A DNA stretch of 64,000 nucleotides from Candidatus Woesebacteria bacterium (GTDB lineage: Bacteria > Patescibacteriota > Microgenomatia > UBA12405). Each line of letters begins with the position of its first letter. Positions within the stretch are counted from its first letter, which is position 1. Positions 12,834-62,959 of the stretch are shown here, in pieces. The notes beneath the pieces were generated by a model, which searched no databases, was not told the origin of the DNA, and worked only from the letters and a program-made list of their open reading frames with translations. Where the stretch lies: assembly GCA_035450165.1 (NCBI GenBank), contig DAOTMI010000001.1, positions 45,888 through 109,887 on the forward strand. Direction: 5' to 3'. Made by a program: the position numbers and the translations under genes.

Positions 12834-14006
12834 TTATTTAATCACTTCGGTGATAGCTCCGGCACCGACGGTTAAACCGCCTTCCCGGATAGCAAAGCGC
12901 TGACCTACCTCCATGGCGACCGGTTTGATCAGGGTAATCTCCACGTTAGTATTGTCCCCCGGCATAATCATCTCTGTTCCTTCAGGAAGTTTAACATCAC
13001 CGGTAACATCGGTCGTTCCGATAAAGACTTGTGGTCGATAACCGGTAAAAACCGGGGTATGACGCCCACCTTCTTCTTTTTTTAACAAATAAATTTCAGC
13101 CTTAAACTGGGTATGGGGCGTAATTGTCCCCGACTTAGCCACTACCTGGCCTCGTTCAATATCGTCTTTTTCTACTCCCCGCAGAAGTAAACCAACATTG
13201 TCGCCAGCCTGACCTTCCTCTAACTGTTTGTGAAACATTTCGACCCCGGTTACTACTACCTTTTTAGTTGGCCTCAGGCCGACAATTTCAACCTCATCGT
13301 TAATTTTCACCTTACCTCTTCCAATCCGGCCGGTCGCCACCGTTCCTCGACCTTTAATAGAAAAGACATCTTCAATCGGCATCAAAAACGGCTTATCCAA
13401 TTCTCTCTTGGGTTCAGGAATATAAGTATCGAGAGCTTCAACTAATTTTTTAATAGACTCTACTGCCTCTGGATCACCCTCTAACGCTTTCAGGGCTGAA
13501 CCACGAATAATTGGCACTTCATCACCTGGAAAACCATATTTTTTCAATAAATCCCTGATTTCTATCTCAACAAGATCTAAAAACTCCGGGTCATCAACTA
13601 AATCAACTTTATTTAAATAAACAACCATTGCCGGAACGTTAACTTGTTTCGCTAGAAGAACGTGTTCTCTTGTTTGAGGCATTGGACCATCGGGTGCCGA
13701 GACGACCAAGATAGCTCCATCCATTTGAGCCGCACCGGTAATCATGTTTTTGACATAATCATGATGGCCGGGGCAATCAATATGGGCATAATGCCTTTTG
13801 TCCGATTCATATTCCAAATGGGAAATAGCAATCGTCACAATTTTAGAGGCATCACGTACTGTTCCTCCCTTAGCTATTTCAGCATAAGACTTTGGATTAC
13901 CTTGAATTTTGGAAATAGCCGCTGATAAGGTAGTTTTCCCATGGTCAACATGACCGATAGTACCAACATTAACGTGGGGTTTAGTTCTTTGATAAGTTGC
14001 CGCCAT
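12834..14006 (-). CDS. tuf: elongation factor Tu
   Basis: 390 aa. [26 protein letters not shown]-motifs and EF-Tu domains 2 and 3. Confidence 0.95.
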
Positions 14007-14142: not shown

Positions 14143-15153
14143 CTACCAAAATCTTCCAAAGGGATTAAGAATTTCAATCTTGCCAGCCTGGGTATCGCTT
14201 AAACCGCAATAAAGTTGAACCTTTTCAAGATAATGTGGCTCATTCTCAATCTTTTGCAAACCGCCGGGCATAATAATATCTTCTAATTCCGGCCTTTTCG
14301 CCGGTCCGGGCGGAAAATCTTTTCTAAGGGCAACAATTCTCATATTTGAGAATTGGAAATCCTTCGGATTAAATTCAAAAACCATCGCCGCGTAATGTTT
14401 AGAACCGTCTAACTCCATTGAAGCGATATGACCTAAAACGCCGATTCGCCCGTCTTTTAATAAATAAGCATTATCAACTCCACCCCATTCTAATTCTTTG
14501 AATTGATTTTCAATAATCCTTGCTTTAGAAATGACATCCTGATTCAAATCTTCCAAAGAATTAATAACTGTAAAACCGATTTTCCCTCGGCCTGCTTTTT
14601 CCCCCTGTGGTCGGGTAAAAACACCAATTTTTTTATCAGCTAATTCAACTAGGCGAATATTCTTCATCATCCTCGGTCCTTCGGTAAATTTTCTAAAGTC
14701 TTTAAAGTTACTGCCCTGAAAGAAAACTGTTTTATATTCAAGCTCGCCTTCTTTGAATCGAGAAGGGGTAACTATTACTCCGTTTAGAACATACCTATTT
14801 TTTATGGTCGTTAAAAAGGGGTCCTGCATCGACCAATAAAAAAGATCTTTAGCTAGCCACCAGCTGTTATCTTTTGGTTCGTAAATAAAGAAGCAGGAAA
14901 TACTGTTTTTTTCCGATCCGCGCGGCTCAACCCGACCTAATAAATAAAGGTTACCATCCTTCTTAATAGGAGCGCTTATATTATAAACATCTTTTTGACC
15001 AACCCCCTTTACTTCTAAAATTTCTCCCCGGACAAAATTCGGTTCGGTTTCTTCATATTTACTCAAAAGCTCCCGGTAGCTTTGGGGTTGGGATTTTGAT
15101 CCCTGCAATTCCGATTCTCTTAAATTTTTTGGACAGGCATCTGGGATCATCAT
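14143..15153 (-). CDS. hypothetical protein, possibly a GH130/DUF1861-like beta-propeller fold. It is inserted between fusA and tuf.
   Basis: 336 aa. Segments such as VYNISAPIKKDGNLYLLGRVE and GPRMMKNIRLVELADKKIGVFTRP resemble the repeated blade motifs of GH130-type glycoside phosphorylases. The fold assignment is by eye only. It is unusual cargo inside the str operon. Confidence 0.35.
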   Translation of the reverse strand: MMIPDACPKNLRESELQGSKSQPQSYRELLSKYEETEPNFVRGEILEVKGVGQKDVYNISAPIKKDGNLYLLGRVEPRGSEKNSISCFFIYEPKDNSWWLAKDLFYWSMQDPFLTTIKNRYVLNGVIVTPSRFKEGELEYKTVFFQGSNFKDFRKFTEGPRMMKNIRLVELADKKIGVFTRPQGEKAGRGKIGFTVINSLEDLNQDVISKARIIENQFKELEWGGVDNAYLLKDGRIGVLGHIASMELDGSKHYAAMVFEFNPKDFQFSNMRIVALRKDFPPGPAKRPELEDIIMPGGLQKIENEPHYLEKVQLYCGLSDTQAGKIEILNPFGRFW

Positions 15154-15159
15154 GGACTG

Positions 15160-17265
15160 TTAAGACTTCTTGACTCCGGGTTTAGTCAATTCTGCCTGAA
15201 TTTCGCAGGGAACGGGATCATAGCGCGATAATTCCATATAAAATAAACCCCGACCTTGAGTTAGAGAACGAATAGTAGTCGCATAACCACGGACAGCTTC
15301 CAGAGGAATAAAACAATCAATAGTCGTAATACCATAAAGCTCTTTAGTATTACTAATTTGGCCCCTCCTTGACGATAAATCACCGATAACTGCCCCCAAA
15401 AACTCTGATGGTGTTTCTACCTCCATTTTCATAATCGGCTCCAAAATCAGCGGTTTAGCCTGTTCGAAAGCTTCTTTGACAGCAAAAGAACCGGCCAATT
15501 TAAAGGCCATTTCGCTGGAATCAACTTCATGGTAAGTACCATCAAAAACAGTAACTTTTAAATCAGTACAGGGATAGCCGGCAATAATCCCTTTAGATAG
15601 GGTTTCCCGAACCCCTTTTTCAATCGCCGGAATGAAATTAGCCGGAATAGCACCGCCTTTGACGGCGTTAATAAACTCTACTCCCTGACCTCTTTCCTTA
15701 GGTTCAACCCGCAGCCAGCAATGACCATATTGGCCATGACCGCCGGATTGATGAATATATTTTCCCTCAGCTTCGGCCTTTTCTGAAATAGTCTCCCGAT
15801 AGGCCACCTGAGGAGCTCCGGTTTTAACATTAACTCCAAATTCCCGTCTCAACCGATCAATAATAATTTCCAAATACAGTTCACCCATACCGGAAATAAT
15901 GGTTTGGCCGGTTTCATGGTCATAAAAAACTTTAAAAGTCGGGTCTTCGATTGCCAATTTATTTAAAGCCTGACCCATTTTTTCCTGATCATCGGCTGTT
16001 TGGGGTTCAATAGCCAGAGAAATAACTGGTTCGGCAAAACGAATCGGCAGAAGAGAAATGGGCTGATTGCGATCACAGAGAGTGTCACCGGTGGCCGATT
16101 CTTTTAAACCAATACAAGCGACAATTTCTCCAGCAAAACCTTCCTCAATCCCTTCCCGTTTATCGGCGTGCATCAAAAGCAGCCGGCCAATTCGTTCGGT
16201 AGTTTTTCGGGTGGCATTATAAACTTCAGAACCAGCCTTTAAAACACCGGAATATATCCTAACATAGGATAAAGTTCCCACATGAGAATCAGCCTGAACT
16301 TTAAATAAAAGGGCTGATAACGGCTCTTCCCGTAAAGGCTTGCGGGTAATTTTCGCCTCAGTTTCCACATCATAACCTTCAACCGGGGGCAGATCTAACG
16401 GTGACGGTAAATAATCGACGATACCGTCCAAAACTGGTTGGATGCCTTTATTTCGCCAAGCCGAACCACAATAAACCGGAAAAAGTTTTCTTTCAATAGT
16501 TGCCTTTCTTAAAACTCTTTTTAAATCTTCAACTTTAATTTCCTCATCGTTTAAAAATTTCTCCATTAAAACTTCGTCCTGGCCAGCGATTGCTTCGACC
16601 ATTTTAGTTCGAACTTCTTCAATTTTATCCTTATCTTCAGGATTTAATTCCTTAGTGGTAAAATTAATCCCCTGTTCATCTTGATCCCAAACCAGCATTT
16701 TCCGGGTCATTAAATCAACCACTCCCATAAATTCATGCTCTTTACCAATTGGGTAAACTACCGGAACTGCAGTTACCCTTAATTTTTCCCTGATACTCTT
16801 AAGAACTAAATTAATATCGGAGCCGATTTTATCCATTTTATTGATAAAAACGATTCGGGGCACTCCATACCGATCAGCCTGACGCCAAACTGTTTCTGAC
16901 TGAGCTTGAACACCGGCATTGCCATCAAAAACCATTACCGCTCCATCCAAAACTCGGAGGGATCGCTCCACTTCAGCGGTGAAATCGACATGGCCGGGAG
17001 TATCAATAATATTAAAACGGTGATTTTTCCAAAAAGTCGTAATACAAGCGGATTGAATAGTAATTCCCCGTTCTTTTTCTTGAATCATAAAATCAGTGGT
17101 CGTTGTCCCTTCATCAACTATACCTATTTTATGGATTTTTCCAGTATAAAACAAAATCCGTTCGGTAGTTGTCGTCTTGCCGGCGTCAATATGGGCAATA
17201 ATACCAATATTACGGACTTTTTCTATCGCGACGTCGCGGTTTTTAGTTATTTTAATCGCTTCCAT
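15160..17265 (-). CDS. fusA: elongation factor G
   Basis: 701 aa. NIGIIAHIDAGKTTTTERILFYTG, DTPGHVDF, NKMD, and domains II-V. Confidence 0.95.
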   Translation of the reverse strand: MEAIKITKNRDVAIEKVRNIGIIAHIDAGKTTTTERILFYTGKIHKIGIVDEGTTTTDFMIQEKERGITIQSACITTFWKNHRFNIIDTPGHVDFTAEVERSLRVLDGAVMVFDGNAGVQAQSETVWRQADRYGVPRIVFINKMDKIGSDINLVLKSIREKLRVTAVPVVYPIGKEHEFMGVVDLMTRKMLVWDQDEQGINFTTKELNPEDKDKIEEVRTKMVEAIAGQDEVLMEKFLNDEEIKVEDLKRVLRKATIERKLFPVYCGSAWRNKGIQPVLDGIVDYLPSPLDLPPVEGYDVETEAKITRKPLREEPLSALLFKVQADSHVGTLSYVRIYSGVLKAGSEVYNATRKTTERIGRLLLMHADKREGIEEGFAGEIVACIGLKESATGDTLCDRNQPISLLPIRFAEPVISLAIEPQTADDQEKMGQALNKLAIEDPTFKVFYDHETGQTIISGMGELYLEIIIDRLRREFGVNVKTGAPQVAYRETISEKAEAEGKYIHQSGGHGQYGHCWLRVEPKERGQGVEFINAVKGGAIPANFIPAIEKGVRETLSKGIIAGYPCTDLKVTVFDGTYHEVDSSEMAFKLAGSFAVKEAFEQAKPLILEPIMKMEVETPSEFLGAVIGDLSSRRGQISNTKELYGITTIDCFIPLEAVRGYATTIRSLTQGRGLFYMELSRYDPVPCEIQAELTKPGVKKS

Positions 17266-22770: not shown

Positions 22771-24195
22771 CTAAGGGATAGGTGTTGGAGAAATTGTCAC
22801 CCGCGGGGTAGGAGTTGCTTCTGGGGCAGCTTTAGCCGTCGGAGTAGCTGTCGATTGAGGAGTTACTATCGCTCCTGTTTTTAAATCAACCCCTATAAGA
22901 AAAACAGCATCGTAAGATGAGGTTGCTGGTAACTCTTCAAATTCAGCCTGAAAATCGGGTAATTTAGCTTTAAAATAAGAGGAAGCAGTGGCGATTTTTT
23001 CCTTAAGTCTAATAATATTGCCCTTGACATTTTCCTTACTGTTGCCGATAGCTACCGAAGTAAAACCCAATTTAGTTAACATCTCTTTTACCGCCGCCGC
23101 TTGACCGTTGATATCGGTGGCATTTAAAACCTGGATTTTAATATCTTTAGCTATTTCTGTTACTGATGGTGTCGGTGTCGTTGTTAGCTCTACTTCTTCT
23201 CTCTGTTCTTTAACTGCTGTTGGTCCTACTGGTGAACTTACCTCTGGAGTTCGATTACGGTTGAGAATAAACCAAATAACAATCGAGGCAATTGCCGCTG
23301 TTACAATAAAAACGGCGATAATAGGAAGATAATTTTTTCGATTTTCCATAGCTGGTCTAATTATAACACGGGGTAGAGAACCAAATAAACCCAGAACTGG
23401 TAAGGGAATATTGCCGGCTTTCCTCCATTCCCGAGCAATTTGAACTTCATCATAAGGAGTTTTGTCTAAAACCGAAGTAGCATTAAGTTCCAGTTCAAAC
23501 TGGCTTGGCACGAAAATTTTAGAAATAGGATGGGAAAAATATAAGCCAGCATAATTAATAATTTTTTGGATATCTAAACTTGTCCCTTTTAATCCGGCGG
23601 TTAAATAAACTTTCTCCTTGTCTGCCAAAAAGAGGGTATATTCATTTTTAGCTATAGGGTAAATTAAAAAATATTCGCCAGCAAAAAATCCAGAGATTAC
23701 TCGAGAAACAGCTGTAGAAACCGTTTCAAATGATAAGGGATTGAAGGCTAATTGAGTCAAATTAGCTTTAAGAACTTCCATTTTGATCTTGTTACCAATA
23801 GAAGCTCGAATAAGAGTCTTATCTGTTCCTGGAAATAATTCATAATTAAGATATTGAGGATCAATTTTAAAAGGAATAAAACTTTCGGCTAGACTAATGA
23901 CTTCTTTCTTCTCGATGGTTTTAATAACCGAATCGTAAATAAACGATTTGGTAATAATCACATCATCATCAACTAAAACCACTCCTTCTTTTAAACCCTG
24001 CTGGTTAACAAAAGCAGTTAAGGGAGCTAAATCTTCAACCGAGTGGGGCTCAAATAGATTTAAATCCCAGTTAAAAACATTATTTTCCTTCCGGTCGAAA
24101 TAAAGATTAACGCTTTTTCTCTTGACCCAAAGAACCACTTTAGGCTTAGCAAATAATGACATCTCTCTTATAGTATGATGAAAAAATCCTACCAA
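22771..24195 (-). CDS. membrane-anchored protein with a C-terminal LytR_C (LytR/CpsA/Psr C-terminal) domain
   Basis: 474 aa. A cytoplasmic N-domain of about 280 aa, a single TM (IIAVFIVTAAIASIVIWFIL), a Pro/Thr/Glu-rich linker, then IKIQVLNATDINGQAAAVKEMLTKLGFTSVAIGNSKE... typical of LytR_C. Its 3' end overlaps the rpsG start by 7 nt, so it is co-transcribed with the str operon. Confidence 0.55.
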   Translation of the reverse strand: MVGFFHHTIREMSLFAKPKVVLWVKRKSVNLYFDRKENNVFNWDLNLFEPHSVEDLAPLTAFVNQQGLKEGVVLVDDDVIITKSFIYDSVIKTIEKKEVISLAESFIPFKIDPQYLNYELFPGTDKTLIRASIGNKIKMEVLKANLTQLAFNPLSFETVSTAVSRVISGFFAGEYFLIYPIAKNEYTLFLADKEKVYLTAGLKGTSLDIQKIINYAGLYFSHPISKIFVPSQFELELNATSVLDKTPYDEVQIAREWRKAGNIPLPVLGLFGSLPRVIIRPAMENRKNYLPIIAVFIVTAAIASIVIWFILNRNRTPEVSSPVGPTAVKEQREEVELTTTPTPSVTEIAKDIKIQVLNATDINGQAAAVKEMLTKLGFTSVAIGNSKENVKGNIIRLKEKIATASSYFKAKLPDFQAEFEELPATSSYDAVFLIGVDLKTGAIVTPQSTATPTAKAAPEATPTPRVTISPTPIP

Positions 24196-32322: not shown

Positions 32323-32350
32323 TTGACAGAGGAGCAAGGCAAAGTATATA
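32323..32350 (+). promoter_or_regulatory. sigma70-like promoter for the 32359 gene. The transcript would be near-leaderless.
   Basis: TTGACA (32323-32328), a 16-nt spacer, TATATA (32345-32350), then 8 nt to the ATG at 32359. A 20-nt near-palindrome tctgcTagccggctGgcaga (32294-32313) sits just upstream in the rpoB-divergent region. Confidence 0.4.
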
Positions 32351-32358
32351 TTTAAATC

Positions 32359-32850
32359 ATGAAAATTACCAAAAAAGTTTTAGGGATTTTGTTTCTCTTG
32401 TTAATTTCTCCTAAATTGACTTTGGCCGGCGGTTTTACCGTCAGTTCTATTGGCGGCGTCAGCACCAATAATATTCAGGTAAGTAAATTTTGGCATACTT
32501 CTCTCCAACCGACTTTTAGAGGAACGGCTTTGCCTTCGAGTAATGTTACTATCGATATTGATGGAACGGCGATTCAGGTCGCAGCCGATTCCAGTGGTGA
32601 TTGGGTTTATACACCGGCAGCAAGTTTAACCACGGGTGCCCACCAGGTAACCTTTACCAACAATGGCTCAACCCAAAAAATAACCCTAACTTTAGGAGAT
32701 TTAAGTGGAATGGATGTAGGAGGAATCAGTAGTTCTACCAGCGCCACGCCGGCGGCGGGAGTTACCTGGCCAACAGTCTTAATCCTTTCTCTGGGTGGAT
32801 TCAGTATCGTTCTGGGATTAAAATATCGGCATGCCCAAGTTCTATCTTAA
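32359..32850 (+). CDS. secreted/cell-surface protein. It has a signal peptide, an Ig-like beta domain, and a C-terminal hydrophobic segment with a basic tail.
   Basis: 163 aa. MKITKKVLGILFLLLISPKLTLA signal. VTIDIDGTAIQVAADSSGDWVYTP resembles a bacterial Ig-like repeat. The C-terminus is ...TWPTVLILSLGGFSIVLGLKYRHAQVLS (TM plus positive tail, sorting-signal-like but without LPXTG). Confidence 0.55.
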   Translation: MKITKKVLGILFLLLISPKLTLAGGFTVSSIGGVSTNNIQVSKFWHTSLQPTFRGTALPSSNVTIDIDGTAIQVAADSSGDWVYTPAASLTTGAHQVTFTNNGSTQKITLTLGDLSGMDVGGISSSTSATPAAGVTWPTVLILSLGGFSIVLGLKYRHAQVLS

Positions 32851-33820
32851 AACATTTGGTTGTGCCCAAAATACGGCCGATTCAGAGCGGATAAAAGCAT
32901 TTTACCAACACAAGGGGTGGCAGGAGGTGGTTGATTGGAAAAAGGCGGACGAAATCATCATCAATAGCTGTATTGTTAGAGAATCGGCTGAAAACAGGGT
33001 CTATGGTTTAATTAATAACATAAGAAAAAATTCAGTCGCAAGAAAACCTAAAATTATCCTCACCGGCTGTTTGGCCGCTGTAGCTAAACAAATAAAAGGA
33101 GTCGATGAAATCTTACCGATAAATCAAATTGCCACCACCGCTGAACCCCTTAGGTGCAGACAGAAAACAGCTCTCATTTCGATTACCAGTGGCTGTAATC
33201 ACTTTTGTTCCTACTGTATTGTCCCCTATACCAGGGGAAGAGAAGTTTCTCGACCTTCAAAAGAAATCTTGAAAGAAATTGACCAGGCAATTAAGGATGG
33301 TTTTAAAGAAATCCTATTGATCGGCCAGAACGTTAACTCGTGGAATAATAACAAATTTCCCCAACTTCTAGAAACTATTGCCAACCGACCGCTTAACAAA
33401 ATTTCGTTCGTTTCAAGCAATCCCTGGAAATTTTCCGATGAACTTATTAAGGTAATTGCCAGACACAACAATATCGACCGCCTTATTCATTTACCATTGC
33501 AATCAGGTGATGATAAAATCTTAAAAAAAATGAACCGAGGTTACACCGCCGCCGACTATTTAAATTTAATTGAGAAAATAAAAAGCAAGGTAAAAAATTC
33601 CAAATTCTCCACTGATATTATCGTTGGCTTTCCGGGTGAAGATGAAAAAGCTTTTCAAAACACAGTCAAACTCTGCCGTCGTGTCGGTTTCGAAATTGCC
33701 TATATCAACAAATATTCTCCCCGGCCGGGAACAATTAGTGCCAAAATATACCCTGATAATGTCCCTCAAACAGAGAAAAAAAGAAGGTGGAAAATATTAA
33801 ATGAATTGATTAATAAATAA
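32831..33820 (+). CDS. MiaB/RimO-family radical SAM methylthiotransferase, short form lacking the TRAM domain
   Basis: 329 aa. The MTTase N-domain (YLKTFGCAQNTADSE...INSCIVRE) and a radical SAM CNHFCSYC cluster. It ends after the radical SAM core. Confidence 0.7.
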   Translation: MPKFYLKTFGCAQNTADSERIKAFYQHKGWQEVVDWKKADEIIINSCIVRESAENRVYGLINNIRKNSVARKPKIILTGCLAAVAKQIKGVDEILPINQIATTAEPLRCRQKTALISITSGCNHFCSYCIVPYTRGREVSRPSKEILKEIDQAIKDGFKEILLIGQNVNSWNNNKFPQLLETIANRPLNKISFVSSNPWKFSDELIKVIARHNNIDRLIHLPLQSGDDKILKKMNRGYTAADYLNLIEKIKSKVKNSKFSTDIIVGFPGEDEKAFQNTVKLCRRVGFEIAYINKYSPRPGTISAKIYPDNVPQTEKKRRWKILNELINK

Positions 33821-33830
33821 AAATTGGAAT

Positions 33831-34742
33831 TTACTTTAAATAATTCTCAATATTTTCCAAATGTTCTTGGTAGGTTTTAGCGTAATGCATCTGGCCGTCT
33901 TTGCCGGTGACATAAAAAAGATAATCACTCGCTGTAGGATGAAAGGCGGCATAAAGAGAATCATAACCCGGGTTACAAATTGGACCTGGTGGTAATCCTT
34001 TATTTTTATAGGTATTATAAGGAGAAACAAGATTAATATCGTCAGCTTGAAGTGGTTGCCAATAAACCTTTGGATTTCTGAATGTATCCCGGGCATATTG
34101 AACCGTAGCATCAATCTGAAGAGCTAAATTAGCTTTTAAACGGTTAAGTAAAATACCGGCAATCATCTGTTTAGTTTCTAATTGCCGTCCCTCCCGTTCT
34201 AATAACGAAGCTAAAATAACAATTTCTTGATCACTCATCAAGTTAGTTGCTCCCACTTTGGCCTGAGCTAACTTTTTGTCAAAATTATCCTTAATTACCT
34301 GTAAAATATCATTTGGAGTAAAATATTCCGGAATTAAATAACTATCCGGAAATAAATAACCTTCCCACTCCTTAGAAAAACGAGGAGTAATTTCCTCTAC
34401 CCGAGAGCCGTCGATAATCCTTAACCAATAATCAGTTGAACCGCCATGGGAAAGCCGCTGCACTATAGCTGCTGTTGACAAATTTGGCGCCAGTCGAAAC
34501 TTACCGGATTGAATTTTTTGTTTCAAACCTAATCTGAAGGTATAAAAAAGAAAAACATATTTATTCCTAATCAAGCGGCTTTTTTCTAATCTGGCGGCAA
34601 TACTGGTTAATTTCTCCCCTTGATTAATAACAAAATCTTTGGGTTGATTCTCAGAAGATACCGGCAAATTACCCCAAAGAAAAAACCCACCCACCACTCC
34701 TAAACACAAAATTAATCCCAAGAAAAGAACCCATTTTTTCAT
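33831..34742 (-). CDS. mltG: endolytic murein transglycosylase MltG (YceG family)
   Basis: 303 aa. N-terminal TM anchor, then YceG motifs (LQIDATVQYA, SPYNTYKNKGLPPGPICNPG). Confidence 0.8.
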   Translation of the reverse strand: MKKWVLFLGLILCLGVVGGFFLWGNLPVSSENQPKDFVINQGEKLTSIAARLEKSRLIRNKYVFLFYTFRLGLKQKIQSGKFRLAPNLSTAAIVQRLSHGGSTDYWLRIIDGSRVEEITPRFSKEWEGYLFPDSYLIPEYFTPNDILQVIKDNFDKKLAQAKVGATNLMSDQEIVILASLLEREGRQLETKQMIAGILLNRLKANLALQIDATVQYARDTFRNPKVYWQPLQADDINLVSPYNTYKNKGLPPGPICNPGYDSLYAAFHPTASDYLFYVTGKDGQMHYAKTYQEHLENIENYLK

Positions 34743-34933
34743 TAGATTTCCGAAAATAAAGCCCGACGATAATTCTTTTGATTTCTAATATAAATCCGGC
34801 CGCAACGACAAGTAACCGTTATTTGACCACGGACTTTTTTTTCCACCCCTTTTTTGAGGGAAGCACCGCAGCCAACACACCGGCCTTGAGATAATAAATA
34901 GGCCTGAATCGGAGCAATTAAATTTTTTATCAT
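34742..34933 (-). CDS. small zinc-ribbon protein
   Basis: 63 aa with CVGCG...CRCGRIY. Translationally coupled between ruvX and mltG, with 1-4 nt overlaps. Confidence 0.5.
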   Translation of the reverse strand: MIKNLIAPIQAYLLSQGRCVGCGASLKKGVEKKVRGQITVTCRCGRIYIRNQKNYRRALFSEI

Positions 34934-35298
34934 ATCGCCCTCCTTAAAATAACAGCGGCCGCAATTGAATCAATCCAAGACTTATATTCTTTCTTTGGCC
35001 TTTTATTATTAATATAAATCTGGTCAGCTTCAATTGTCGAAACTGCTTCTTCAATAAACTCGACCTTTAATTTTAACATAGTCGCCAGTTTGTCACCAAA
35101 TTTTCTGGTCTGGGCAGCTACTTCACCCTCACTTAAACCAAGGTATATTTGATCAATTTCATAGTCCCGAACCAACCGGCGGAGATTATTGAAAAGATTT
35201 TTGTCGTTTTTAAGCGGTAATATTGGTGAAATAATTCCCTTAATTGCTACTGCCAATCCAATTCGTTTTGAACCATAATCAATAGCCAAATAATTCAT
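34930..35298 (-). CDS. ruvX: Holliday-junction resolvase-like nuclease YqgF/RuvX
   Basis: 122 aa. MNYLAIDYGSKRIGLAVA matches the YqgF N-terminus, with RNase H-like fold acidic residues. Confidence 0.8.
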   Translation of the reverse strand: MNYLAIDYGSKRIGLAVAIKGIISPILPLKNDKNLFNNLRRLVRDYEIDQIYLGLSEGEVAAQTRKFGDKLATMLKLKVEFIEEAVSTIEADQIYINNKRPKKEYKSWIDSIAAAVILRRAI

Positions 35299-35315
35299 TT
35301 AGTAAATAAGGCAAA

Positions 35316-36035
35316 TCATTCGACGATTCTCGCCCTAACTACCAGCCGGCGAAGATAAGTCCCCGGCGGTGAACAAGTAACTAAGGAAAGATAACGACCA
35401 TCATAGCGCTGTTCTAAAATAGAAAAGTCGGTAGCTTTCACTTCAAAAACATCTTCTACTAGATAAGTATAGTGGACTCGGTCAAAATAAACGATGATCT
35501 GATCGCCTGGAATTAATTTAAATAAAGTTGAAAACACTGTCAAATAAGATTTGGGATTGAAAAACTGCGGTAAAACCGAATGGCCAAAAATAACTGCATT
35601 ACCTCTTTGACCTGGTAGAGCTGTTTGGGGATAATGGATAATGCTTTTCTTTAAATCCTTACCACCGATAGTTACTTCGACATCTTTTATCCCTAATTTA
35701 GGAATAGATAAAAGATAACTTCGATGATCAGTTTCGCTTAAAAGCTCCTGTGAATAGGCCGCTGTTTGACCATTGTTTTGAACAAACCAATTGGAAAGCT
35801 GAGTAAAATCAACTGCTTCAGCCATAATACCTTCTTCATTGTTATAAAATTTGACGGAAAGTGGACTTAAAATAGGTTGGAAGCGACGGCTGTAACCCCA
35901 CTGAAAATACGTTAACGGGTAAAGAACGAAAAGAAAAGATAAAATACCAATGACTAAAAAAATAAAAGACAAATAATTTTTAGCCGCTGGTTTAGATTTT
36001 TTGGCAGGTTTTTTTTTCAAATAAACGTAAGCCAT
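35316..36035 (-). CDS. sortase (transpeptidase)
   Basis: 239 aa. N-terminal TM anchor. The catalytic triad context reads FGHSV (His), LSLVTCSP (TLxTC Cys) and a downstream Arg (RRLVVRAR). Confidence 0.8.
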   Translation of the reverse strand: MAYVYLKKKPAKKSKPAAKNYLSFIFLVIGILSFLFVLYPLTYFQWGYSRRFQPILSPLSVKFYNNEEGIMAEAVDFTQLSNWFVQNNGQTAAYSQELLSETDHRSYLLSIPKLGIKDVEVTIGGKDLKKSIIHYPQTALPGQRGNAVIFGHSVLPQFFNPKSYLTVFSTLFKLIPGDQIIVYFDRVHYTYLVEDVFEVKATDFSILEQRYDGRYLSLVTCSPPGTYLRRLVVRARIVE

Positions 36036-38152
36036 TAATTTATTCTAGAAACAAGATTAATCCGACTCTTAATAATTGGCAAAGGAAACACCTTACCAAT
36101 CATTGGTAAATTAGACCGAATTTTCCAACTATAAAAATAATCGCAATTATTTTTAAAATAGTTTAGGGCGGAACTCCAGGTTCGACCAACAATTTTTGAT
36201 TTTATGCTCTCTAGATCTAATTTAGGGGCAACTGAACCGGTAATAGTTAACTGACCAATCGCTCTCTGTTCATCGCTTTTTTCTTCCGTAAATTTCAATT
36301 GGTAAACCATCTGCTGGTAGTCAGCTTGATCATCTTTGGTTTCAATTAAAGAATAAATAATTTCATCCTTTTTGGCCGAAGGAATAACAAAAACAGTCAT
36401 TGTTAATTCCTGAACTGCCGATAATTCATCAATTACTTCACCAACATTGCGATTAAATTCAATTTTCTTGGATTGAGTTCTAACAGTCTCTGGCAAGGCC
36501 CCGGCCAAATTATTAATATCTTTTTCAATTTTTTCTTTAATAGTTGTTTCGACTGCTCTCTTTAGGCGCGATTCTAGTTCTATCTTATCTTGACGGTCAA
36601 CAACTTGGACTTCCTGCCGACTACCACCGGTAAAATCTGCTTCGGTTCTGGCTATTAAAACACTCTCGGGATAATCTTTAAAAACCAATTTTGCTCCCTG
36701 GGAAAGATTAAACTCCGGCCCAATATCGACCGCCCCAACCACTGTTTTAGTCTGACCCAGTTTAAGTACTGCCGGCTCTTGATTAAAATCTAAATTGCCG
36801 CCGGCAACTTGAACCGGAGTTAATAACTCAAACTGTTTATTGTCAGCAGTCATCAAAATTGTTCCAACTGGCAAATTTAGCACTTTTTCCTCCTTATTAA
36901 AAATAACAACACTCCCCTTGGCTTTTTCCCCAACAGTTTTTTTACCGGTTGTAGGAACCTTGTCGCTAACTTTGAGATTAAAAGATTGAATTACTGCCGG
37001 AATTACCCTCGATCCGGGACTGAAAGTGGCTGTTTGGGAATCTAAAGTAACTGGTATAGTTGTTTCCAAAGGCAGGGGTTTTAATAAAAGGACAATTTCT
37101 ACCCGATTTAACAACCATAAGCCAAGGAATAATAGAGGGATAAAAGATAAAAACCAAAGAAAAGCATTTAGTTTTAATTTTAATCTCAATTTAATTTTGG
37201 GTAATTTGGGCCTTATTTTAGGTTTTAAGTCTAGTTGAGCCATCGGCACTTCGACTGGAGGGGAGGTTGTCTCGGGAACTACTGCCGTCGGTGGTTCTAC
37301 TTCGGCCGGCGGTTCCATTGATAAGGCTGTTTCAGACTCGACTGGCGGCAATGATTCGACTGCTGCTGGTTCAACTTCAGCTGGAGAGACTGCCTCTTCT
37401 GTCGGTCCTAAAGATCCCGACTCTACCGGACCAATAATCTGTTTATTAATAAAACTAGCCCAAATTCGGGTAATTTCCTCCAAACTTAAAAACTTTAAAT
37501 CGGGTAAATGAAAGAAAATATCACCAATCTTTTTACCTATCCAAGGGTAATTCTTGATATCATCTATCGGCAGATTGGGAGTATCACCAAAAAAAATCAA
37601 TAGAGGTGGTAGGGTCGATTGGGACGAGAGATTAGCTAAAACATTTTCAATCGCTTTGGGAGAAAAACCGTCGCTAAAAGTTTCATGAAATCGTTCTTTT
37701 ACTTTGCCAAAATAAACCAAAGAAAGATTAAATTGACGTCGGCCTAGATTAATTAAAATAAAACTATTACTAAATGACTCGTCATTTTCAACTGATTCGA
37801 CTAGGGCTTCATCATTACCGATAAAACCCAACGGTTTAAATTTAAGTTTCTTACAAATCTCTTCGATTAGTTTAAATTTGGCTGCCGTAATTTGACCATC
37901 GATATCAATCCAAAAAGGAGAAAGAATAAAAGCGGCTAACTCCGGCTCAGCTGCTTCCTCAATAGCCGCCATTTGGGCTGTTTCACTTAAGGAGGCATCT
38001 ACCGCCAAAATCAGCGACTCTTCTGAATCTGGCTCATATATCTTTGGTTTACCGGTAACAATACGTTCAAATTGATTTCCGGCAAACAAAACCAAAGAAA
38101 CATTAACCTCTTCCTCATCGATAGCAATCAGCCAATAGTTATTAGTTGCCAT
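36035..38152 (-). CDS. large membrane protein. It has a cytoplasmic N-domain, a Pro/Glu-rich linker, one TM and an extracytoplasmic beta-rich domain. It is co-operonic with the sortase.
   Basis: 705 aa. No signal peptide. The repeat-like linker reads AEVEPAAVESLPPVESETALSMEPPAEVEPPTAVVPETTSPPVEVP. A TM follows at about aa 320-345 (AFLWFLSFIPLLFLGLWLL). Its stop overlaps the sortase start by 1 nt. Confidence 0.5.
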   Translation of the reverse strand: MATNNYWLIAIDEEEVNVSLVLFAGNQFERIVTGKPKIYEPDSEESLILAVDASLSETAQMAAIEEAAEPELAAFILSPFWIDIDGQITAAKFKLIEEICKKLKFKPLGFIGNDEALVESVENDESFSNSFILINLGRRQFNLSLVYFGKVKERFHETFSDGFSPKAIENVLANLSSQSTLPPLLIFFGDTPNLPIDDIKNYPWIGKKIGDIFFHLPDLKFLSLEEITRIWASFINKQIIGPVESGSLGPTEEAVSPAEVEPAAVESLPPVESETALSMEPPAEVEPPTAVVPETTSPPVEVPMAQLDLKPKIRPKLPKIKLRLKLKLNAFLWFLSFIPLLFLGLWLLNRVEIVLLLKPLPLETTIPVTLDSQTATFSPGSRVIPAVIQSFNLKVSDKVPTTGKKTVGEKAKGSVVIFNKEEKVLNLPVGTILMTADNKQFELLTPVQVAGGNLDFNQEPAVLKLGQTKTVVGAVDIGPEFNLSQGAKLVFKDYPESVLIARTEADFTGGSRQEVQVVDRQDKIELESRLKRAVETTIKEKIEKDINNLAGALPETVRTQSKKIEFNRNVGEVIDELSAVQELTMTVFVIPSAKKDEIIYSLIETKDDQADYQQMVYQLKFTEEKSDEQRAIGQLTITGSVAPKLDLESIKSKIVGRTWSSALNYFKNNCDYFYSWKIRSNLPMIGKVFPLPIIKSRINLVSRIN

Positions 38153-39858
38153 TATTTAAGGATAGCATAGAGACGGCGTTTTGAACTGCCGGCTGACTCT
38201 TCCTTAATAATTTTGAATCGACCCAAAACACCAGTTCTTTTAACATGAGGGCCAGTGCAAACTTCTCGGCTGAAATTACCAATAGTGTAAACAGAAACTA
38301 CGGCTGGATATTTATCACCAAAAACAGCCAAAGCACCCGATTTTTTCGCTTTGATTAGGGTCATATTTTTACTGACAACTGGTAAATCAGCCTGAATCAT
38401 TTGGTTAACCAAATTTTCCACTGCCAATATCTGTGCCGAAGTTAACTTTGAGGGATAAGTAAAATCAAAACGCAGTCGTTCAGGGGTAATATTGGAACCA
38501 GCTTGATGAACCTGATTACCCAAGAGCTGTCTTAAACCCGCTTGAAGTAAATGGGTGGCTGTGTGATATTTTGTTGTCATCTCGGAATTATCCTTTAAAC
38601 CACTTTTAAACGCCCCCCGATCAATGGTTTTCGATTTTCGCTGATGTTCCTTTCCAGCTTGATCAAATTCATCTTTATCAATAACTATACCCAATTCTTC
38701 TTCGATTAACTCTAAAGGAAAGCCATAACTTTCATAAATTTTAAAGGCTTCCTTGCCCGTCAAAGTCTGGTAATGTTTTAATTCTTTCAAACCTAATTCT
38801 AAGGTCCTTTTAAATCTCTTTTCTTCATCCTGGACTACGTTGATAATATCGGGATTATTTAATTCATCGTAGTTATCTGCATAATTATCACGATTATCAA
38901 TAACAGCCTGGACGATTGGCGTTAAACTTTCAATAGCCAAACTTTTGGCTAATCGGACTGATTTTCGAATTAAACGGCGAAGGACATAACCGCCTTCTTT
39001 ATTACTTGGTTCAATGCCATCGGCAATGAGAAATACTACCGCTTTTAAATAATCAGCTATGATTTGAACCGAATTTAACGACTGATTTTCCCCTTTCCTT
39101 AAGACTTCGATTGTCTTAATAATCGGTTGCCAAACAGAAGTTAAATAATCATTATTTTTCCCATCTAAAGCGGCTAAAATCCGTTCGACCCCCATGCCGG
39201 TATCAACATTTTTCAGACCAAGATCTCGATAATGACCTTGGCCATCAGTATAATGATCCATAAAAACATCGTTCCAAATTTCAAGGTAGCGGCCAGATTT
39301 TTCCCCGATCACAAAGGGAACCTCAGGCTGATTTGACTGAAGATCAATAAACATCTCGGTATCGGGGCCGCCTGGACCGGCTACACCTTCCCGCTCCCAC
39401 CAATTAGTTTTTTTTCCCAGAGTTACTAAATGATTTTCGGGTATTCCTAATTTTTTCCAAATTTTTGGTGTTTCTTTATCAGATTGATAAACCGTTACCC
39501 AAATAAAGCGAGGATTAAACTTTAAAATTTGGGTTAAAAATTCAAAACTCCAACTGATAGCCTCTTCTTTAAAATAATCGTTTAAAGACCAATTGCCTAA
39601 CATTTCAAAAAAGATATGGTGTCGACCGTCACCGACGCTATTAATATCGCTTGTCCGTAAACACCGCTGGAGACCCACTAAACGCTTGCCTAAAGGATGG
39701 GGTTGACCCATTAAATAAGGCACCAGAGGATGCATGCCGGCGGAAATAAAAAGAGTAGAAGAATCGTTCTCGGGGATAAGGGAAACATTGGGAATTTCCT
39801 GATGACCTTTGGCTTTAAAAAAATCAAAATACTTCTCTTTTAACTGCCGAGCTTTCAT
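38152..39858 (-). CDS. alaS: alanyl-tRNA synthetase, short form (catalytic and editing core, no C-Ala domain)
   Basis: 568 aa. AlaRS class II N-terminus (FISAGMHPLVPYL...RCLRTSDI...GDGRHHIFFEMLGNWS) and the editing-site HTATHLL. It ends about 300 aa short of canonical bacterial AlaRS. Confidence 0.8.
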   Translation of the reverse strand: MKARQLKEKYFDFFKAKGHQEIPNVSLIPENDSSTLFISAGMHPLVPYLMGQPHPLGKRLVGLQRCLRTSDINSVGDGRHHIFFEMLGNWSLNDYFKEEAISWSFEFLTQILKFNPRFIWVTVYQSDKETPKIWKKLGIPENHLVTLGKKTNWWEREGVAGPGGPDTEMFIDLQSNQPEVPFVIGEKSGRYLEIWNDVFMDHYTDGQGHYRDLGLKNVDTGMGVERILAALDGKNNDYLTSVWQPIIKTIEVLRKGENQSLNSVQIIADYLKAVVFLIADGIEPSNKEGGYVLRRLIRKSVRLAKSLAIESLTPIVQAVIDNRDNYADNYDELNNPDIINVVQDEEKRFKRTLELGLKELKHYQTLTGKEAFKIYESYGFPLELIEEELGIVIDKDEFDQAGKEHQRKSKTIDRGAFKSGLKDNSEMTTKYHTATHLLQAGLRQLLGNQVHQAGSNITPERLRFDFTYPSKLTSAQILAVENLVNQMIQADLPVVSKNMTLIKAKKSGALAVFGDKYPAVVSVYTIGNFSREVCTGPHVKRTGVLGRFKIIKEESAGSSKRRLYAILK

Positions 39859-57599: not shown

Positions 57600-58532
57600 T
57601 TAATTAAAGAAAAAATCAAAACTTTCGTTAGGGTTAAAAAACTCGTCTTCCGCCGGCTGGGGTTGAGCCCCCAAATAAACATTGATTTGGGCGGAATCAG
57701 TCGCTAACGGCGTGCGGTTGACAATCAAATATTCCCCTTTCAAAACATCCTCCACCAAATCAGCCTGATCAGATTCAGCCTCCCGAAATTCAATCAAGGC
57801 ATTTTCAATCTTTTTTTCGCTATCTTTAGCTTCGATTTCTTTATAGCCAACGGTTTTAAAAAGATTGCCGACGCGTTTGGCTTCACCGGCTTCGGTGCCA
57901 GCATTGTAAACCATAATTTTGACACTGGGATCGGCAAGAGGAAGCGGTTTTTCGGTAATTTCGGGGGTAACTATAGGAATAACTTCAGCTACTTTTTCGA
58001 CAACTTTCGGCTGGGGCCGATTGCTAATAAAAAAACCGGTTAAAAGAACAAAAACGACGACAAAGCTAGCGGGAATTTGAATTTTACTGGCAATAAATCT
58101 TTTGATATTTAGGGTGGTTTGCTGGATGGGCGGCAAATTTTCTATTTCTTCTTCAGTGGCAACTTCATCGGGAAAGATCAAGATAATCGCCCCCATGAAA
58201 GTGATCAAAAGTCCGGACAAAATGCTGATAGCCAAATGCAAAATTTTGTTGTCCAATTGGACTTTCCATAAAATGATTAAGGCGCCGATTATGCCTAAGG
58301 CAACGGTAAAAATGTAATCAAATGGAGTTGGTTTTTTTGTTTCTATCGGTTCTTCATCTTGCGGTAAAAGCGCGGTAATTATCCCTAAAATCAGAACCCC
58401 ACCCAAAACCCAGTTTAGGGAAAAGACATCGGAAACAAATCCGGGAAATAAAGTTTCCAATAAAAATAGGATTAGATAAAAAATCAAGGAATAACTGAAA
58501 AGCTCTTTAATAATCAGGGCAATCGTTTTCAT
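57600..58532 (-). CDS. multi-TM membrane protein with a C-terminal LytR_C domain
   Basis: 310 aa. About 5 TMs, a Pro/Glu linker, then IMVYNAGTEAGEAKRVGNLFKTVGYKEIEAKDS...VYLGA (LytR_C-like). Confidence 0.5.
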   Translation of the reverse strand: MKTIALIIKELFSYSLIFYLILFLLETLFPGFVSDVFSLNWVLGGVLILGIITALLPQDEEPIETKKPTPFDYIFTVALGIIGALIILWKVQLDNKILHLAISILSGLLITFMGAIILIFPDEVATEEEIENLPPIQQTTLNIKRFIASKIQIPASFVVVFVLLTGFFISNRPQPKVVEKVAEVIPIVTPEITEKPLPLADPSVKIMVYNAGTEAGEAKRVGNLFKTVGYKEIEAKDSEKKIENALIEFREAESDQADLVEDVLKGEYLIVNRTPLATDSAQINVYLGAQPQPAEDEFFNPNESFDFFFN

Positions 58533-60329: not shown

Positions 60330-60397
60330 TGGTAATTGATTATAATACAGATTAGAGTTCTTGAAACATGTGGTAATTTTTATATTTATTCTCTTTT

Positions 60398-61951
60398 TTA
60401 TTTAGTTTCAATTTTTAATAAATTATCAGTGATTTTTTTATATTTTAGCCCATAATCATTCATCTGAATATTATACAAAATTGATTCAGAATCTTTTTCC
60501 TTCATTATGTATACTGGTATGTTGTCTTTAAGAAGCTCATTTATCAGTGTAATTGATGTTTGTGTCCTCGTCGTTTCTGGTATTGAGACATATATTGCTG
60601 TTTGACGAACTGGATATATATATTTATCATACATATTTGTAAAAATAATTGCATTATTCTCCGTTTTTTTTAATATTTGAGTTTGAAAAGTGTTTGTCCA
60701 CTTAGAGGTATCTAAAAAATATTTTATTGACATATCACTCAAAAATGCTTGATAAATATTAGTCACCAATAATATGAATATTGATATATAAAAAATAATT
60801 TTGGTCTTTAGTATATTGTGAAGATAATAAACTCCAATAACAACTATAATAATCCAACTAATCAATAAGTATCTAGAAAAACTTGTACCGACACTCCCTA
60901 CAAATCCTGATCCGGACCAATTTTTACCCACAAAAAATAAACACTGTAAAATTACGATATAAAATAAATATTTTAAAATAATATCAACACTTTTATTTAA
61001 TTTTTTCAAAAATATTTTTAATATTGAAATAATTGAAAGACTAACTAATATTGGATTTACAAAAAACACTTGATTAATAATATTTGTAATAAAATTTTTT
61101 ATATTTATTTTAAAAATAAACGACAGAATTCCATTACTACTTGAGGATAATTGATAGTGATTAAGATTGTATATTGGATTATTAAAATTAAGAAAACCAT
61201 TATATGTTTTGGTTTGAAAAAAATATAAAAGAATAAAAAGAAAACTAAAAGGTATTGATGCAATTATAATATTTTTTATCTTTATCTTTTTTAAACAACC
61301 TTTTTGGGGATCCCAAAGTAATAATAATATAAAAGGTAAATAGAATAAAACTGATGGATAATTGAACCACATGGATATTCCCGCAAATAAGCCAAATAAA
61401 AAATATGGTATTTTCTTGTCTTTATAAATTGCCTCTAAAAGAAAGAACAATCCTATTATAAAAAAGGTGGTTGATGGTAAATCTTTAAATGGAGTATTGC
61501 TAACATACAAAAAGGGACCTGATAGATAAATAATGACTATACACAAAGTGGAAATTATATGATCGCTAAATACGTATTTATTAATTATTTTATGTACGTA
61601 TATAAGACATAGAACTGAAAAAAGAGGGTTTAGTAAAAATAATAATTTAGGTGATACTAATTTAAACAACGCAACTAGAAAAATCATCCCTGGTAGTGAT
61701 GAAGGAACAAAACCATCTTTAAAAAAGAGTAATCCTCGGATACCGAAAATCGGAGGTGAATATTTTAAATTTAAGTTATTGATGTATTTATATGATTTAT
61801 TACTAATTAAAAGATTGGAAAATAGGTCATTTTGATTTGTATCAGTGTTGGGAAAATTGTTTTTTTGAATAGAATAATTTACTAAAATACTAATGATAAA
61901 AATTAACAATAGTGTTAGGTTCAAAATTATATTTTTTTTCATTGATTGCAT
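60398..61951 (-). CDS. polytopic membrane protein, GT-C-like (ArnT/PMT-type) glycosyltransferase candidate. Very AT-rich.
   Basis: 517 aa with at least 12 TM helices. Lys/Ile/Asn/Phe-rich codon usage distinct from the rest of the window. Confidence 0.45.
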   Translation of the reverse strand: MQSMKKNIILNLTLLLIFIISILVNYSIQKNNFPNTDTNQNDLFSNLLISNKSYKYINNLNLKYSPPIFGIRGLLFFKDGFVPSSLPGMIFLVALFKLVSPKLLFLLNPLFSVLCLIYVHKIINKYVFSDHIISTLCIVIIYLSGPFLYVSNTPFKDLPSTTFFIIGLFFLLEAIYKDKKIPYFLFGLFAGISMWFNYPSVLFYLPFILLLLWDPQKGCLKKIKIKNIIIASIPFSFLFILLYFFQTKTYNGFLNFNNPIYNLNHYQLSSSSNGILSFIFKINIKNFITNIINQVFFVNPILVSLSIISILKIFLKKLNKSVDIILKYLFYIVILQCLFFVGKNWSGSGFVGSVGTSFSRYLLISWIIIVVIGVYYLHNILKTKIIFYISIFILLVTNIYQAFLSDMSIKYFLDTSKWTNTFQTQILKKTENNAIIFTNMYDKYIYPVRQTAIYVSIPETTRTQTSITLINELLKDNIPVYIMKEKDSESILYNIQMNDYGLKYKKITDNLLKIETK

Positions 61952-61977
61952 GATTAGTCTAAATTATTATCGTTTAT

Positions 61978-62958: not shown

Positions 62959-62959
62959 A

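What the first reader, a model, noticed from the sequence alone, without database searches (positions are those of the whole stretch)
32359..38152. Sortase locus with candidate non-canonical substrates
A clear sortase (35316-36035, His/Cys/Arg triad with LVTCSP) is translationally coupled to a 705-aa membrane protein with a Pro/Glu-rich linker. That protein has no C-terminal sorting signal. Three kb away, the 163-aa Ig-like secreted protein (32359-32850) ends in a sorting-signal-like tripartite tail (PAAGVTWPT, a hydrophobic helix, then KYRH) but lacks LPXTG. Patescibacteria sortases and their recognition motifs are essentially uncharacterised, so this pair could define one. The locus also includes mltG, ruvX and a Zn-ribbon micro-protein in one tightly overlapping operon.
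Basis: inference. Interest (0 to 1): 0.5.

Follow-up and report, generated by a model that had tools for sequence, protein, structure and literature searches.

The report
CPR sortase, its scaffold and LPxAG substrate
In this Woesebacteria (candidate phyla radiation) genome, a sortase is always encoded together with a large membrane protein of new design, and nearby lies a small secreted Ig-like protein whose conserved tail is a one-residue variant (LPxAG) of the classic LPXTG wall-anchoring signal, so it is the likely sortase substrate.

Summary

The 163-aa Ig-like protein is a credible sortase substrate. Across 29 distinct homologous tails the motif is [L>M,I,T]-P-x-[A/V/S]-G-x-x-W-P-[T/G], then 14-15 hydrophobic residues, then K/R. 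P, G and P are invariant. Thr at position 4 never occurs. The window copy (TPAAG) is the only one without a hydrophobic first residue. One in-silico A->T change at position 4 lifts such a tail above the curated LPXTG-anchor cutoff.

The 705-aa protein is not a substrate. It has an FtsA/PilM-like cytoplasmic domain without conserved nucleotide loops, a Pro/Glu linker, one TM helix and a baseplate-J-like ectodomain. It sits directly upstream of the sortase in all 11 distinct loci examined. One of these loci has a different context, next to a class A PBP.

Limits: only one substrate family was found. It is missing near the sortase in 5 of 11 loci. No genome-wide motif enrichment could be run, and nothing is biochemically tested.

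Verdict: a new variant of a known kind, of moderate interest.

The parts
32323..32352 (+). Promoter-like site TTGACA-18-TATATT (11 of 12 matches), ending 7 nt before the ATG of the Ig-like gene
   Evidence: This is a consensus match only.
32359..32850 (+). Precursor of a 163-aa secreted Ig-like protein, the candidate sortase substrate. Signal peptide aa 1-23 (A23 invariant), Ig sandwich aa 27-112, disordered linker, C-terminal sorting signal.
   Evidence: Big_13 1e-7; AF2 pLDDT 80; generic Ig/FN3 folds only
32746..32775 (+). Motif T130-P-A-A-G134-V-T-W-P-T139. Family consensus is L-P-x-[A/V/S]-G-x-x-W-P-[T/G].
   Evidence: 29 distinct tails: P, G and P in 29/29; Thr at position 4 in 0/29; an A->T swap reaches the TIGR01167 cutoff
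32776..32847 (+). Hydrophobic stretch of 15 aa (V140-L154) followed by the basic tail KYRHAQVLS
   Evidence: (helix 136-162)
32831..33820 (+). MiaB-family radical-SAM methylthiotransferase (329 aa). Its start overlaps the Ig-like gene by 20 nt. Context gene.
33831..34742 (-). MltG/YceG endolytic transglycosylase, last gene of the operon
   Evidence: (1e-68)
34742..34933 (-). 63-aa CxxC...CxC zinc-ribbon-like protein, conserved between ruvX and mltG in most related loci
34930..35298 (-). RuvX/YqgF
35316..36035 (-). Sortase of 239 aa. N-in TM anchor near aa 21-41. H152, C221 and R230. Invariant cytoplasmic N-terminus M-x-Y-x-Y-x-K and an extracellular juxtamembrane segment ending in the conserved motif D-[YF]-TQLSNWF (D, T, Q, W and F invariant).
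37433..38152 (-). Partner protein aa 1-240: cytoplasmic actin-like (FtsA/PilM-like) domain without conserved phosphate-binding loops
37175..37423 (-). Partner protein aa 244-326: disordered Pro/Glu-rich linker ending in a Lys/Arg-rich stretch on the cytoplasmic face
   Evidence: (pLDDT below 50)
37109..37174 (-). Partner protein: single transmembrane helix (about aa 327-348)
36035..37105 (-). Partner protein aa 350-705 plus stop codon: extracellular beta-rich domain with a baseplate J/gp47-like fold
38152..39858 (-). Short-form alanine--tRNA ligase, first gene of the overlapping operon. Context gene.

Best explanation
This is a cell-wall protein-sorting module of a Microgenomates (Ca. Woesebacteria) bacterium with three parts.

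(1) A membrane-anchored sortase with a His152/Cys221/Arg230 active site. It fits none of the curated classes A-F.

(2) A 705-aa bitopic protein, translationally coupled to the sortase. It has a nucleotide-loop-less FtsA/PilM-like cytoplasmic domain, a Pro/Glu linker, one TM helix and a baseplate-J-like ectodomain. It most likely acts as a scaffold that holds or positions the sortase at sites of peptidoglycan synthesis. It may do this by binding the sortase's invariant cytoplasmic N-terminal peptide, as PilM binds PilN.

(3) A 163-aa Sec-exported single-Ig-domain protein. Its short hydrophobic segment and basic tail hold it in the membrane. The sortase would then cleave it between position 4 (Ala/Val/Ser) and Gly of an LPx[A/V/S]G motif and transfer it to the lipid II / peptidoglycan stem peptide.

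Shown here: the genes, folds, motif conservation and gene linkage. Inferred: cleavage, wall attachment, the scaffold role and the peptide-docking step.
For: Sortase identity and triad.

Tail motif: it is conserved in 29 distinct homologues with P/G/P invariant while the flanking linker varies, followed by 14-15 hydrophobic residues and then K/R. The motif lies in a disordered segment just outside the predicted helix.

Link to LPXTG: native tails miss the LPXTG models. A single A->T change at position 4 gives TIGR01167 16.9 bits (cutoff 15.9) and PF00746 14.5 bits. LPxAG is an accepted SrtA signal in two S. aureus proteins (PMC3436756).

Substrate linkage: the Ig-like gene lies within 10 kb of the sortase in 6 of 11 distinct sortase loci. 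These include homologues only 45% identical.

Partner linkage: a 645-752-aa homologue lies immediately upstream of the sortase in all 11 distinct loci. In L016 the alaS-ruvX-mltG context is replaced by a class A PBP, with LCP and VanW genes nearby, so the pair travels as a unit.

Against: No biochemical data exist for any CPR sortase.

Only one substrate family was found. A tail-profile search of 1.84e9 proteins gave 10 hits, all from this family. In contrast, sortase homologues number more than 1,700 clusters.

The Ig-like gene is absent within 10 kb of the sortase in L008, L009, L013, L015 and L016. In L005/L006 it sits in an unrelated neighbourhood. The proximity could therefore be inherited synteny of the rpoB-alaS region and not functional linkage.

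The window copy has Thr instead of Leu at position 1, with unknown effect on recognition.

The scaffold role and the sortase-peptide docking are analogies. No complex model could be run.
Confidence: 0.6

Rival explanations
1. The C-terminus of the 163-aa protein is a plain, unprocessed membrane anchor. The conserved P..G...P residues would be a structural hinge at the membrane surface, and the protein stays membrane-tethered without sortase involvement.
For: Native tails do not reach any curated sorting-signal model. AF2 predicts an ordinary helix at 136-162. The gene is missing from 5 of 11 sortase loci and occurs away from any sortase gene in L005/L006.
Against: The conserved residues reproduce LPXTG position by position (L 25/29, P 29/29, G 29/29), with the canonical spacing to a short 14-15-residue hydrophobic stretch and a K/R stop. 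One A->T change crosses the TIGR01167 cutoff. The hydrophobic stretch is shorter than a typical stable TM helix.
Confidence: 0.2
2. The sortase's main substrates lie elsewhere in the genome and use another motif. The Ig-like gene sits nearby only because the whole rpoB-miaB-mltG-ruvX-alaS neighbourhood is conserved in Microgenomates.
For: The sortase family is far broader than the Ig-like family: more than 1,700 versus about 26 clusters. The gene order of the whole region is conserved. The Ig-like gene is coupled to miaB, not to the sortase operon, and lies on the opposite strand.
Against: No other ORF with a sorting-signal-like tail was seen in the 64-kb window or in about 250 kb of related loci. 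The Ig-like tail is the only LPXTG-like signal found. This rival is compatible with the Ig-like protein being one substrate among several.
Confidence: 0.15
3. The sortase polymerises the Ig-like protein. The mature N-terminus (Gly-Gly-Phe or Ser-Gly-Phe after cleavage at invariant Ala23) would attack the LPxAG thioacyl intermediate. This would build a head-to-tail covalent fibre on the baseplate-J-like platform instead of simple wall anchoring.
For: A23 is invariant and G25/F26 are nearly invariant directly after the predicted signal-peptidase site. There is no invariant Lys that could serve as a classical pilin-motif nucleophile. The partner's ectodomain has a fold used in phage baseplates as an assembly platform.
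Against: The first mature residue is Ser in about 8 of 20 sequences. The conserved GF may simply start the first beta-strand. No natural head-to-tail sortase polymer is known (from my own knowledge). No data bear on this directly.
Confidence: 0.05

Closest known systems
Staphylococcus aureus sortase A with its LPxAG substrates (two proteins with a C-terminal LPxAG motif; PMC3436756)
   Same: A Cys transpeptidase with a His/Cys/Arg active site and an N-terminal membrane anchor. The substrate has a Sec signal peptide, then an L-P-x-A-G pentapeptide, a short hydrophobic stretch and a basic tail.
   Different: Here Thr at position 4 is absent in 29 of 29 tails, so it is not a minority variant. An extra conserved W-P-[T/G] sits at the membrane boundary. 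The enzyme meets no class cutoff: its best score is class E at 55.7 bits against a cutoff of 160. The organism is a CPR bacterium.
Class C and class E sortases (PDB 4d7w, 4d70, 5go5/5go6, 5cuw)
   Same: These are the best sequence matches (E about 1e-9). They share the TLVTC-type motif and a catalytic Arg nine residues after Cys.
   Different: Only about 40 bits of similarity. The long conserved juxtamembrane segment that ends in D-[YF]-TQLSNWF and the invariant cytoplasmic M-x-Y-x-Y-x-K are specific to the Microgenomates family. Whether the juxtamembrane segment acts like a class C lid is unknown.
PilM-PilN (type IV pilus) and GspL (type II secretion): an actin-like cytoplasmic domain coupled to a bitopic membrane protein
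   Different: No Pfam PilM, FtsA or GspL hit. The phosphate loops are not conserved. The outer domain is baseplate-J-like, not PilN- or GspL-like. The gene partner is a sortase, not a pilus or secretion ATPase system.
[quoted passage not shown]
   Same: A conserved membrane protein encoded next to a housekeeping sortase. It is thought to act on the enzyme itself, not as a substrate.
   Different: SafA is described as a small transmembrane protein with an FPW motif that protects SrtA from signal peptidase. The protein here is about 700 aa, with two large folded domains and no sequence relationship to SafA.
Baseplate J / gp47 wedge proteins of contractile injection systems (PF04865; PDB 8v3w_E, 9ki1_H)
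   Different: There is no phage or tailocin context. The domain is membrane-tethered and extracellular in a housekeeping operon. The window protein itself has no Pfam hit.

Membership tests
Sortase superfamily (PF04203 / TIGR01076) | HMM match above the curated cutoff | tested here: met
   PF04203 84.4 bits (cutoff 26.6). TIGR01076 48.3 bits (cutoff 39.35).
Sortase superfamily (PF04203 / TIGR01076) | Catalytic His, the Cys of the TLxTC motif, and Arg | tested here: met
   H152, C221 (SLVTC) and R230 are invariant in 32 homologues. They align with those of PDB sortases.
Sortase superfamily (PF04203 / TIGR01076) | Transpeptidase activity on a sorting signal | not testable with these tools
   Needs an enzyme assay.
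Sortase classes A-F (NCBIfam class models) | Score above the class-specific cutoff | tested here: not met
   Class E 55.7/160, SrtD 52.9/140, class C 49.1/160, class D 46.9/165, class F 27.5/166, class GN 14.1/158.
LPXTG cell-wall sorting signal (TIGR01167 / PF00746) | LPXTG pentapeptide | tested here: not met
   The window has TPAAG. The family has LPx[A/V/S]G, with Thr at position 4 in 0 of 29 tails.
LPXTG cell-wall sorting signal (TIGR01167 / PF00746) | Hydrophobic stretch followed by positively charged residues at the extreme C-terminus, plus an N-terminal signal peptide | tested here: met
   14-15 hydrophobic residues then K/R in 28 of 29 tails. There is an N-terminal hydrophobic leader with invariant A23.
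LPXTG cell-wall sorting signal (TIGR01167 / PF00746) | HMM match above the curated cutoff | tested here: not met
   Native tails give no hit at E<=10. After one in-silico A->T change the tail of P0016 scores 16.9 bits against a cutoff of 15.9, so the architecture fits and only the Thr is missing.
LPXTG cell-wall sorting signal (TIGR01167 / PF00746) | Cleavage within the motif and amide linkage to peptidoglycan | not testable with these tools
   Needs mass spectrometry or biochemistry.
FtsA / PilM actin-like ATPases | Actin-like (ASKHA) fold | tested here: met
FtsA / PilM actin-like ATPases | Conserved phosphate-1 (DxG) and phosphate-2 (DxGG) nucleotide-binding loops, and a family HMM match | tested here: not met
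   The loop columns are variable in 47 homologues. There is no FtsA, PilM or GspL Pfam hit in any member.
Baseplate J (PF04865) | HMM match or fold | tested here: inconclusive
Baseplate J (PF04865) | Part of a contractile-tail or tailocin baseplate gene cluster | tested here: not met
   Neighbours are alaS, sortase, ruvX and mltG, or a class A PBP. There are no tail genes.

The most novel reading that the evidence does not exclude
The sortase and its FtsA/PilM-like, baseplate-J-like transmembrane partner form a previously undescribed two-component sortase machine specific to Microgenomates-type CPR bacteria. The cytoplasmic actin-like domain would tie surface-protein sorting to the division or wall-synthesis apparatus. 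The ectodomain would serve as an assembly platform on which the small LPxAG Ig protein, with its mature N-terminus Gly/Ser-Gly-Phe, is ligated head-to-tail into a covalent surface fibre instead of merely being wall-anchored.
Probability: 0.08. Interest if true: 0.85.

Novelty: new variant of a known kind. Interest (0 to 1): 0.5.

Why it matters
Sortases are near-ubiquitous in Microgenomates (PMC6744442). In the papers I could search, no substrate, recognition motif or accessory factor has been described for any CPR sortase.

This locus offers three concrete, testable items:
- A candidate substrate family with a defined motif, LPx[A/V/S]G-xx-WP. Current LPXTG models miss it only because Thr is replaced.
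- A simple fix for annotation pipelines.
- A conserved partner protein that could explain how wall-protein sorting is organised in ultra-small cells with a Gram-positive-like envelope.

A sortase that naturally prefers Ala, Val or Ser at position 4 would also interest protein-ligation engineering.

Tried and rejected
(1) The 705-aa protein as a substrate. A regex flagged 'LPMIGKVFP' near its C-terminus. That string is found only in the closest relatives, no hydrophobic segment follows it, and it lies in a folded region. Rejected.

(2) Other sorting systems. NCBIfam and Pfam scans of the tails found no PEP-CTERM, PGF-CTERM or other CTERM model. None of 10 further membrane or unknown proteins of the window matched an exosortase-type family.

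(4) Other families with the same tail. A 40-column tail profile searched against 1.84e9 representative proteins returned 10 hits, all from the same family.

(5) Wider locus sampling. The genome-contig scan was made with a single sequence and found only one close relative, L011.

(6) Literature. Searches for a described CPR sortase motif or partner found only gene-family-level mentions.
Full report
**Origin and gene content**

Exact-match database entries name the proteins of this window as Candidatus Woesebacteria, in the Microgenomates group of the CPR/Patescibacteria.

- A 163-aa protein (32359-32850, +) with a Big_13 Ig-like domain, E=1e-7.
- A MiaB-family radical-SAM enzyme (32831-33820, +).
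- On the minus strand: AlaRS (38152-39858), a 705-aa protein with no Pfam or NCBIfam hit (36035-38152), a sortase (35316-36035; PF04203 E=7e-24), RuvX, a 63-aa CxxC...CxC protein and MltG.

The junctions are TAATG (alaS/705-aa, 705-aa/sortase, Zn-ribbon/mltG) and ATGA (ruvX/Zn-ribbon). The six minus-strand genes therefore form one tightly packed operon. A strong promoter-like site, TTGACA-18-TATATT, ends 7 nt before the ATG of the Ig-like gene.

**The sortase**

His152 (FGHS), Cys221 (SLVTCSPPGT) and Arg230 are invariant in an alignment of 32 homologues that are 52-63% identical.

The best solved-structure matches are class C, D and E enzymes at only E about 1e-9. Every class-specific NCBIfam model scores far below its cutoff. 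The best is class E at 55.7 bits against 160. It is a bona fide sortase that falls outside the curated classes.

Two features are specific to this family:
- An invariant cytoplasmic N-terminus, M-x-Y-x-Y-x-K.
- A long conserved extracellular juxtamembrane segment ending in D-[YF]-TQLSNWF.

More than 1,700 homologous clusters were found. [quoted passage not shown]

**The 163-aa protein**

AlphaFold2 (pLDDT 80) gives this layout:
- Signal-peptide helix, aa 2-16.
- One Ig-like sandwich, aa 27-112.
- Disordered segment, aa 121-133.
- C-terminal helix, aa 136-162.

The decisive result comes from homologues. Sixteen were found by word-seeded search. Ten more came from a full HMMER scan of 1.84 billion proteins with a tail-only profile. 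Three were read from related loci.

In 29 distinct tails the pattern is as follows:

| Position | Residues |
|---|---|
| 1 | L 25, M 2, I 1, T 1 |
| 2 | P 29/29 |
| 3 | A, T, S, V or N |
| 4 | A 18, V 7, S 4; never T |
| 5 | G 29/29 |
| 6-7 | variable |
| 8 | W 24 |
| 9 | P 29/29 |
| 10 | T 23, G 5, S 1 |

After position 10 come 14-15 hydrophobic residues and then K/R. The eight residues upstream of the motif are variable and carry indels.

So the family carries an LPXTG-type signal in which Thr is replaced. The window copy (TPAAG) is the single member with Thr instead of a hydrophobic first residue.

Native tails do not reach the curated LPXTG models. Changing only position 4 to Thr in silico lifts one tail to 16.9 bits on TIGR01167 (cutoff 15.9) and 14.5 bits on PF00746. 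Spacing, hydrophobic length and charge are therefore those of a canonical sorting signal.

LPxAG is a documented natural variant in two S. aureus sortase A substrates (PMC3436756).

**Gene linkage of the substrate**

The Ig-like gene, always followed by miaB, lies within 10 kb of the sortase in:
- the window;
- L001-L003/L011;
- L007 and ERZ1426769;
- L010;
- L012;
- L014.

These include homologues only about 45% identical. L004 shows the same arrangement up to the contig end.

It is absent near the sortase in L008, L009, L013, L015 and L016. In L005/L006 it lies next to proS and RNase J.

No other ORF with a sorting-signal-like tail was seen in the 64-kb window or in the related loci. The tail profile found no second family.

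The Ig-like protein is therefore a good candidate substrate. It cannot be the only reason the sortase is conserved, and part of the proximity may be inherited synteny.

**The 705-aa protein**

It is not a substrate. It has no C-terminal hydrophobic tail. A 'LPMIG' string near its end is neither conserved nor followed by a membrane segment.

AlphaFold2 on 47 homologues (pLDDT 85) shows four parts:
- A folded N-terminal domain, aa 1-240.
- A disordered Pro/Glu linker (16 P and 13 E in 83 residues) ending in a Lys/Arg cluster.
- One TM helix, aa 330-348.
- A beta-rich C-terminal domain, aa 350-705.

Nineteen of 47 homologues give weak PF04865 hits, and none hits an FtsA, PilM or GspL model. The two loops that bind nucleotide phosphates in actin-fold ATPases are not conserved. 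The cytoplasmic domain is therefore probably a non-catalytic binding module.

The basic cluster before the TM helix implies N-in, C-out. That places the baseplate-J-like domain outside the membrane, next to the sortase catalytic domain.

**Linkage of partner and sortase**

A 645-752-aa homologue sits immediately upstream of the sortase, usually overlapping it, in all 11 distinct loci examined.

Most loci share the alaS...ruvX-mltG frame, which on its own could be inherited gene order. L016 breaks this frame. Its partner homologue is only about 23% identical. The pair is followed by a class A PBP and surrounded by LCP, VanW and MurL genes, with no alaS, ruvX or mltG.

The two genes therefore move as a unit, and both contexts are peptidoglycan-related.

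**Mechanism proposed**

1. Sec export, with signal-peptidase cleavage after invariant Ala23.
2. The short hydrophobic segment and basic tail hold the protein in the membrane.
3. Cys221 attacks the peptide bond between position 4 (A/V/S) and Gly.
4. The acyl-enzyme is resolved by the peptidoglycan precursor amine, giving a wall-linked Ig domain.

The 705-aa protein would act as a scaffold. It could retain or position the sortase at sites of wall synthesis, possibly by binding the sortase's invariant cytoplasmic peptide as PilM binds PilN's N-terminus. All catalytic and interaction steps are inferred.

A precedent for a sortase-linked membrane accessory protein exists in Actinobacteria (SafA, PMC9282373), but that protein is unrelated.

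**Novelty**

The enzyme family and the general sorting logic are known, and LPxAG is a known minor variant. Three things appear undescribed in the literature I could search:
- A substrate family in which Thr is systematically absent and a WP[T/G] boundary motif is conserved.
- A first candidate substrate and motif for a CPR sortase.
- The obligate FtsA/PilM-like plus baseplate-J-like partner.

I rate it a new variant of a known kind, with moderate interest.

Noticed in passing
window 60001-64000: GC drops to about 25%, against about 38-40% elsewhere. The genes here are a PMT_2-type glycosyltransferase (60398-61951), a family-2 glycosyltransferase (61978-62958) and an FrhB/FdhB-like protein (62960-63817). 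This looks like an acquired surface-glycan island.
   Followed up: partly
window 14143-15153 (-): A 336-aa DUF1861 protein (E=1e-99) sits between the genes I read as EF-Tu (12834-14006) and EF-G (15160-17265), inside the otherwise canonical ribosomal-protein/str region. The EF-Tu and EF-G assignments rest only on the N-terminal sequences printed.
   Followed up: no
window 32831-33820 (+): The MiaB-family enzyme is only 329 aa. It aligns to the MiaB/RimO models only up to about position 360 of 429, so the C-terminal TRAM region seems to be missing. Its start overlaps the Ig-like gene by 20 nt. The Ig-like-then-miaB pairing is conserved in every locus that has the Ig-like gene except L005/L006.
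   Followed up: partly
window 34742-34933 (-): A 63-aa CxxC...CxC protein with no family hit is conserved (63-66 aa) between ruvX and mltG in most related loci. It is not called in L009, L012 or L007.
   Followed up: partly
window 22771-24195, 57600-58532, 58536-60329 (all -): Three proteins with N-terminal hydrophobic segments each carry a LytR_C domain, with no LCP catalytic domain detected.
   Followed up: no
L016 10001-15534: A distant copy of the partner-plus-sortase pair is followed directly by a class A PBP. It lies among LCP, VanW/PG_binding_4 and MurL genes, in a genome that also encodes prephenate dehydratase and dehydroquinase. The organism is not identified; GC is 37%.
   Followed up: partly
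P0219: One database protein joins the Ig-like tail, including LPTAG and the hydrophobic segment, to the N-terminus of the MiaB-like enzyme. This is probably a gene-calling or frameshift artefact at the overlapping junction.
   Followed up: no
L004, L008, L010, L012-L015, next to the Ig-like/miaB genes: A 288-431-aa protein is recurrently encoded divergently from the Ig-like/miaB pair. It has weak to faint VWC2L_2nd or Pacifastin_I hits. In L008 it has a P/E-rich N-terminus and one TM helix. No counterpart is present at this position in the window, where rpoB abuts the Ig-like gene.
   Followed up: no
L009 12109-12996: The sortase paired with the most divergent alaS-context partner is 295 aa. 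It has a long basic N-terminal extension and lacks the M-x-Y-x-Y-x-K peptide.
   Followed up: no
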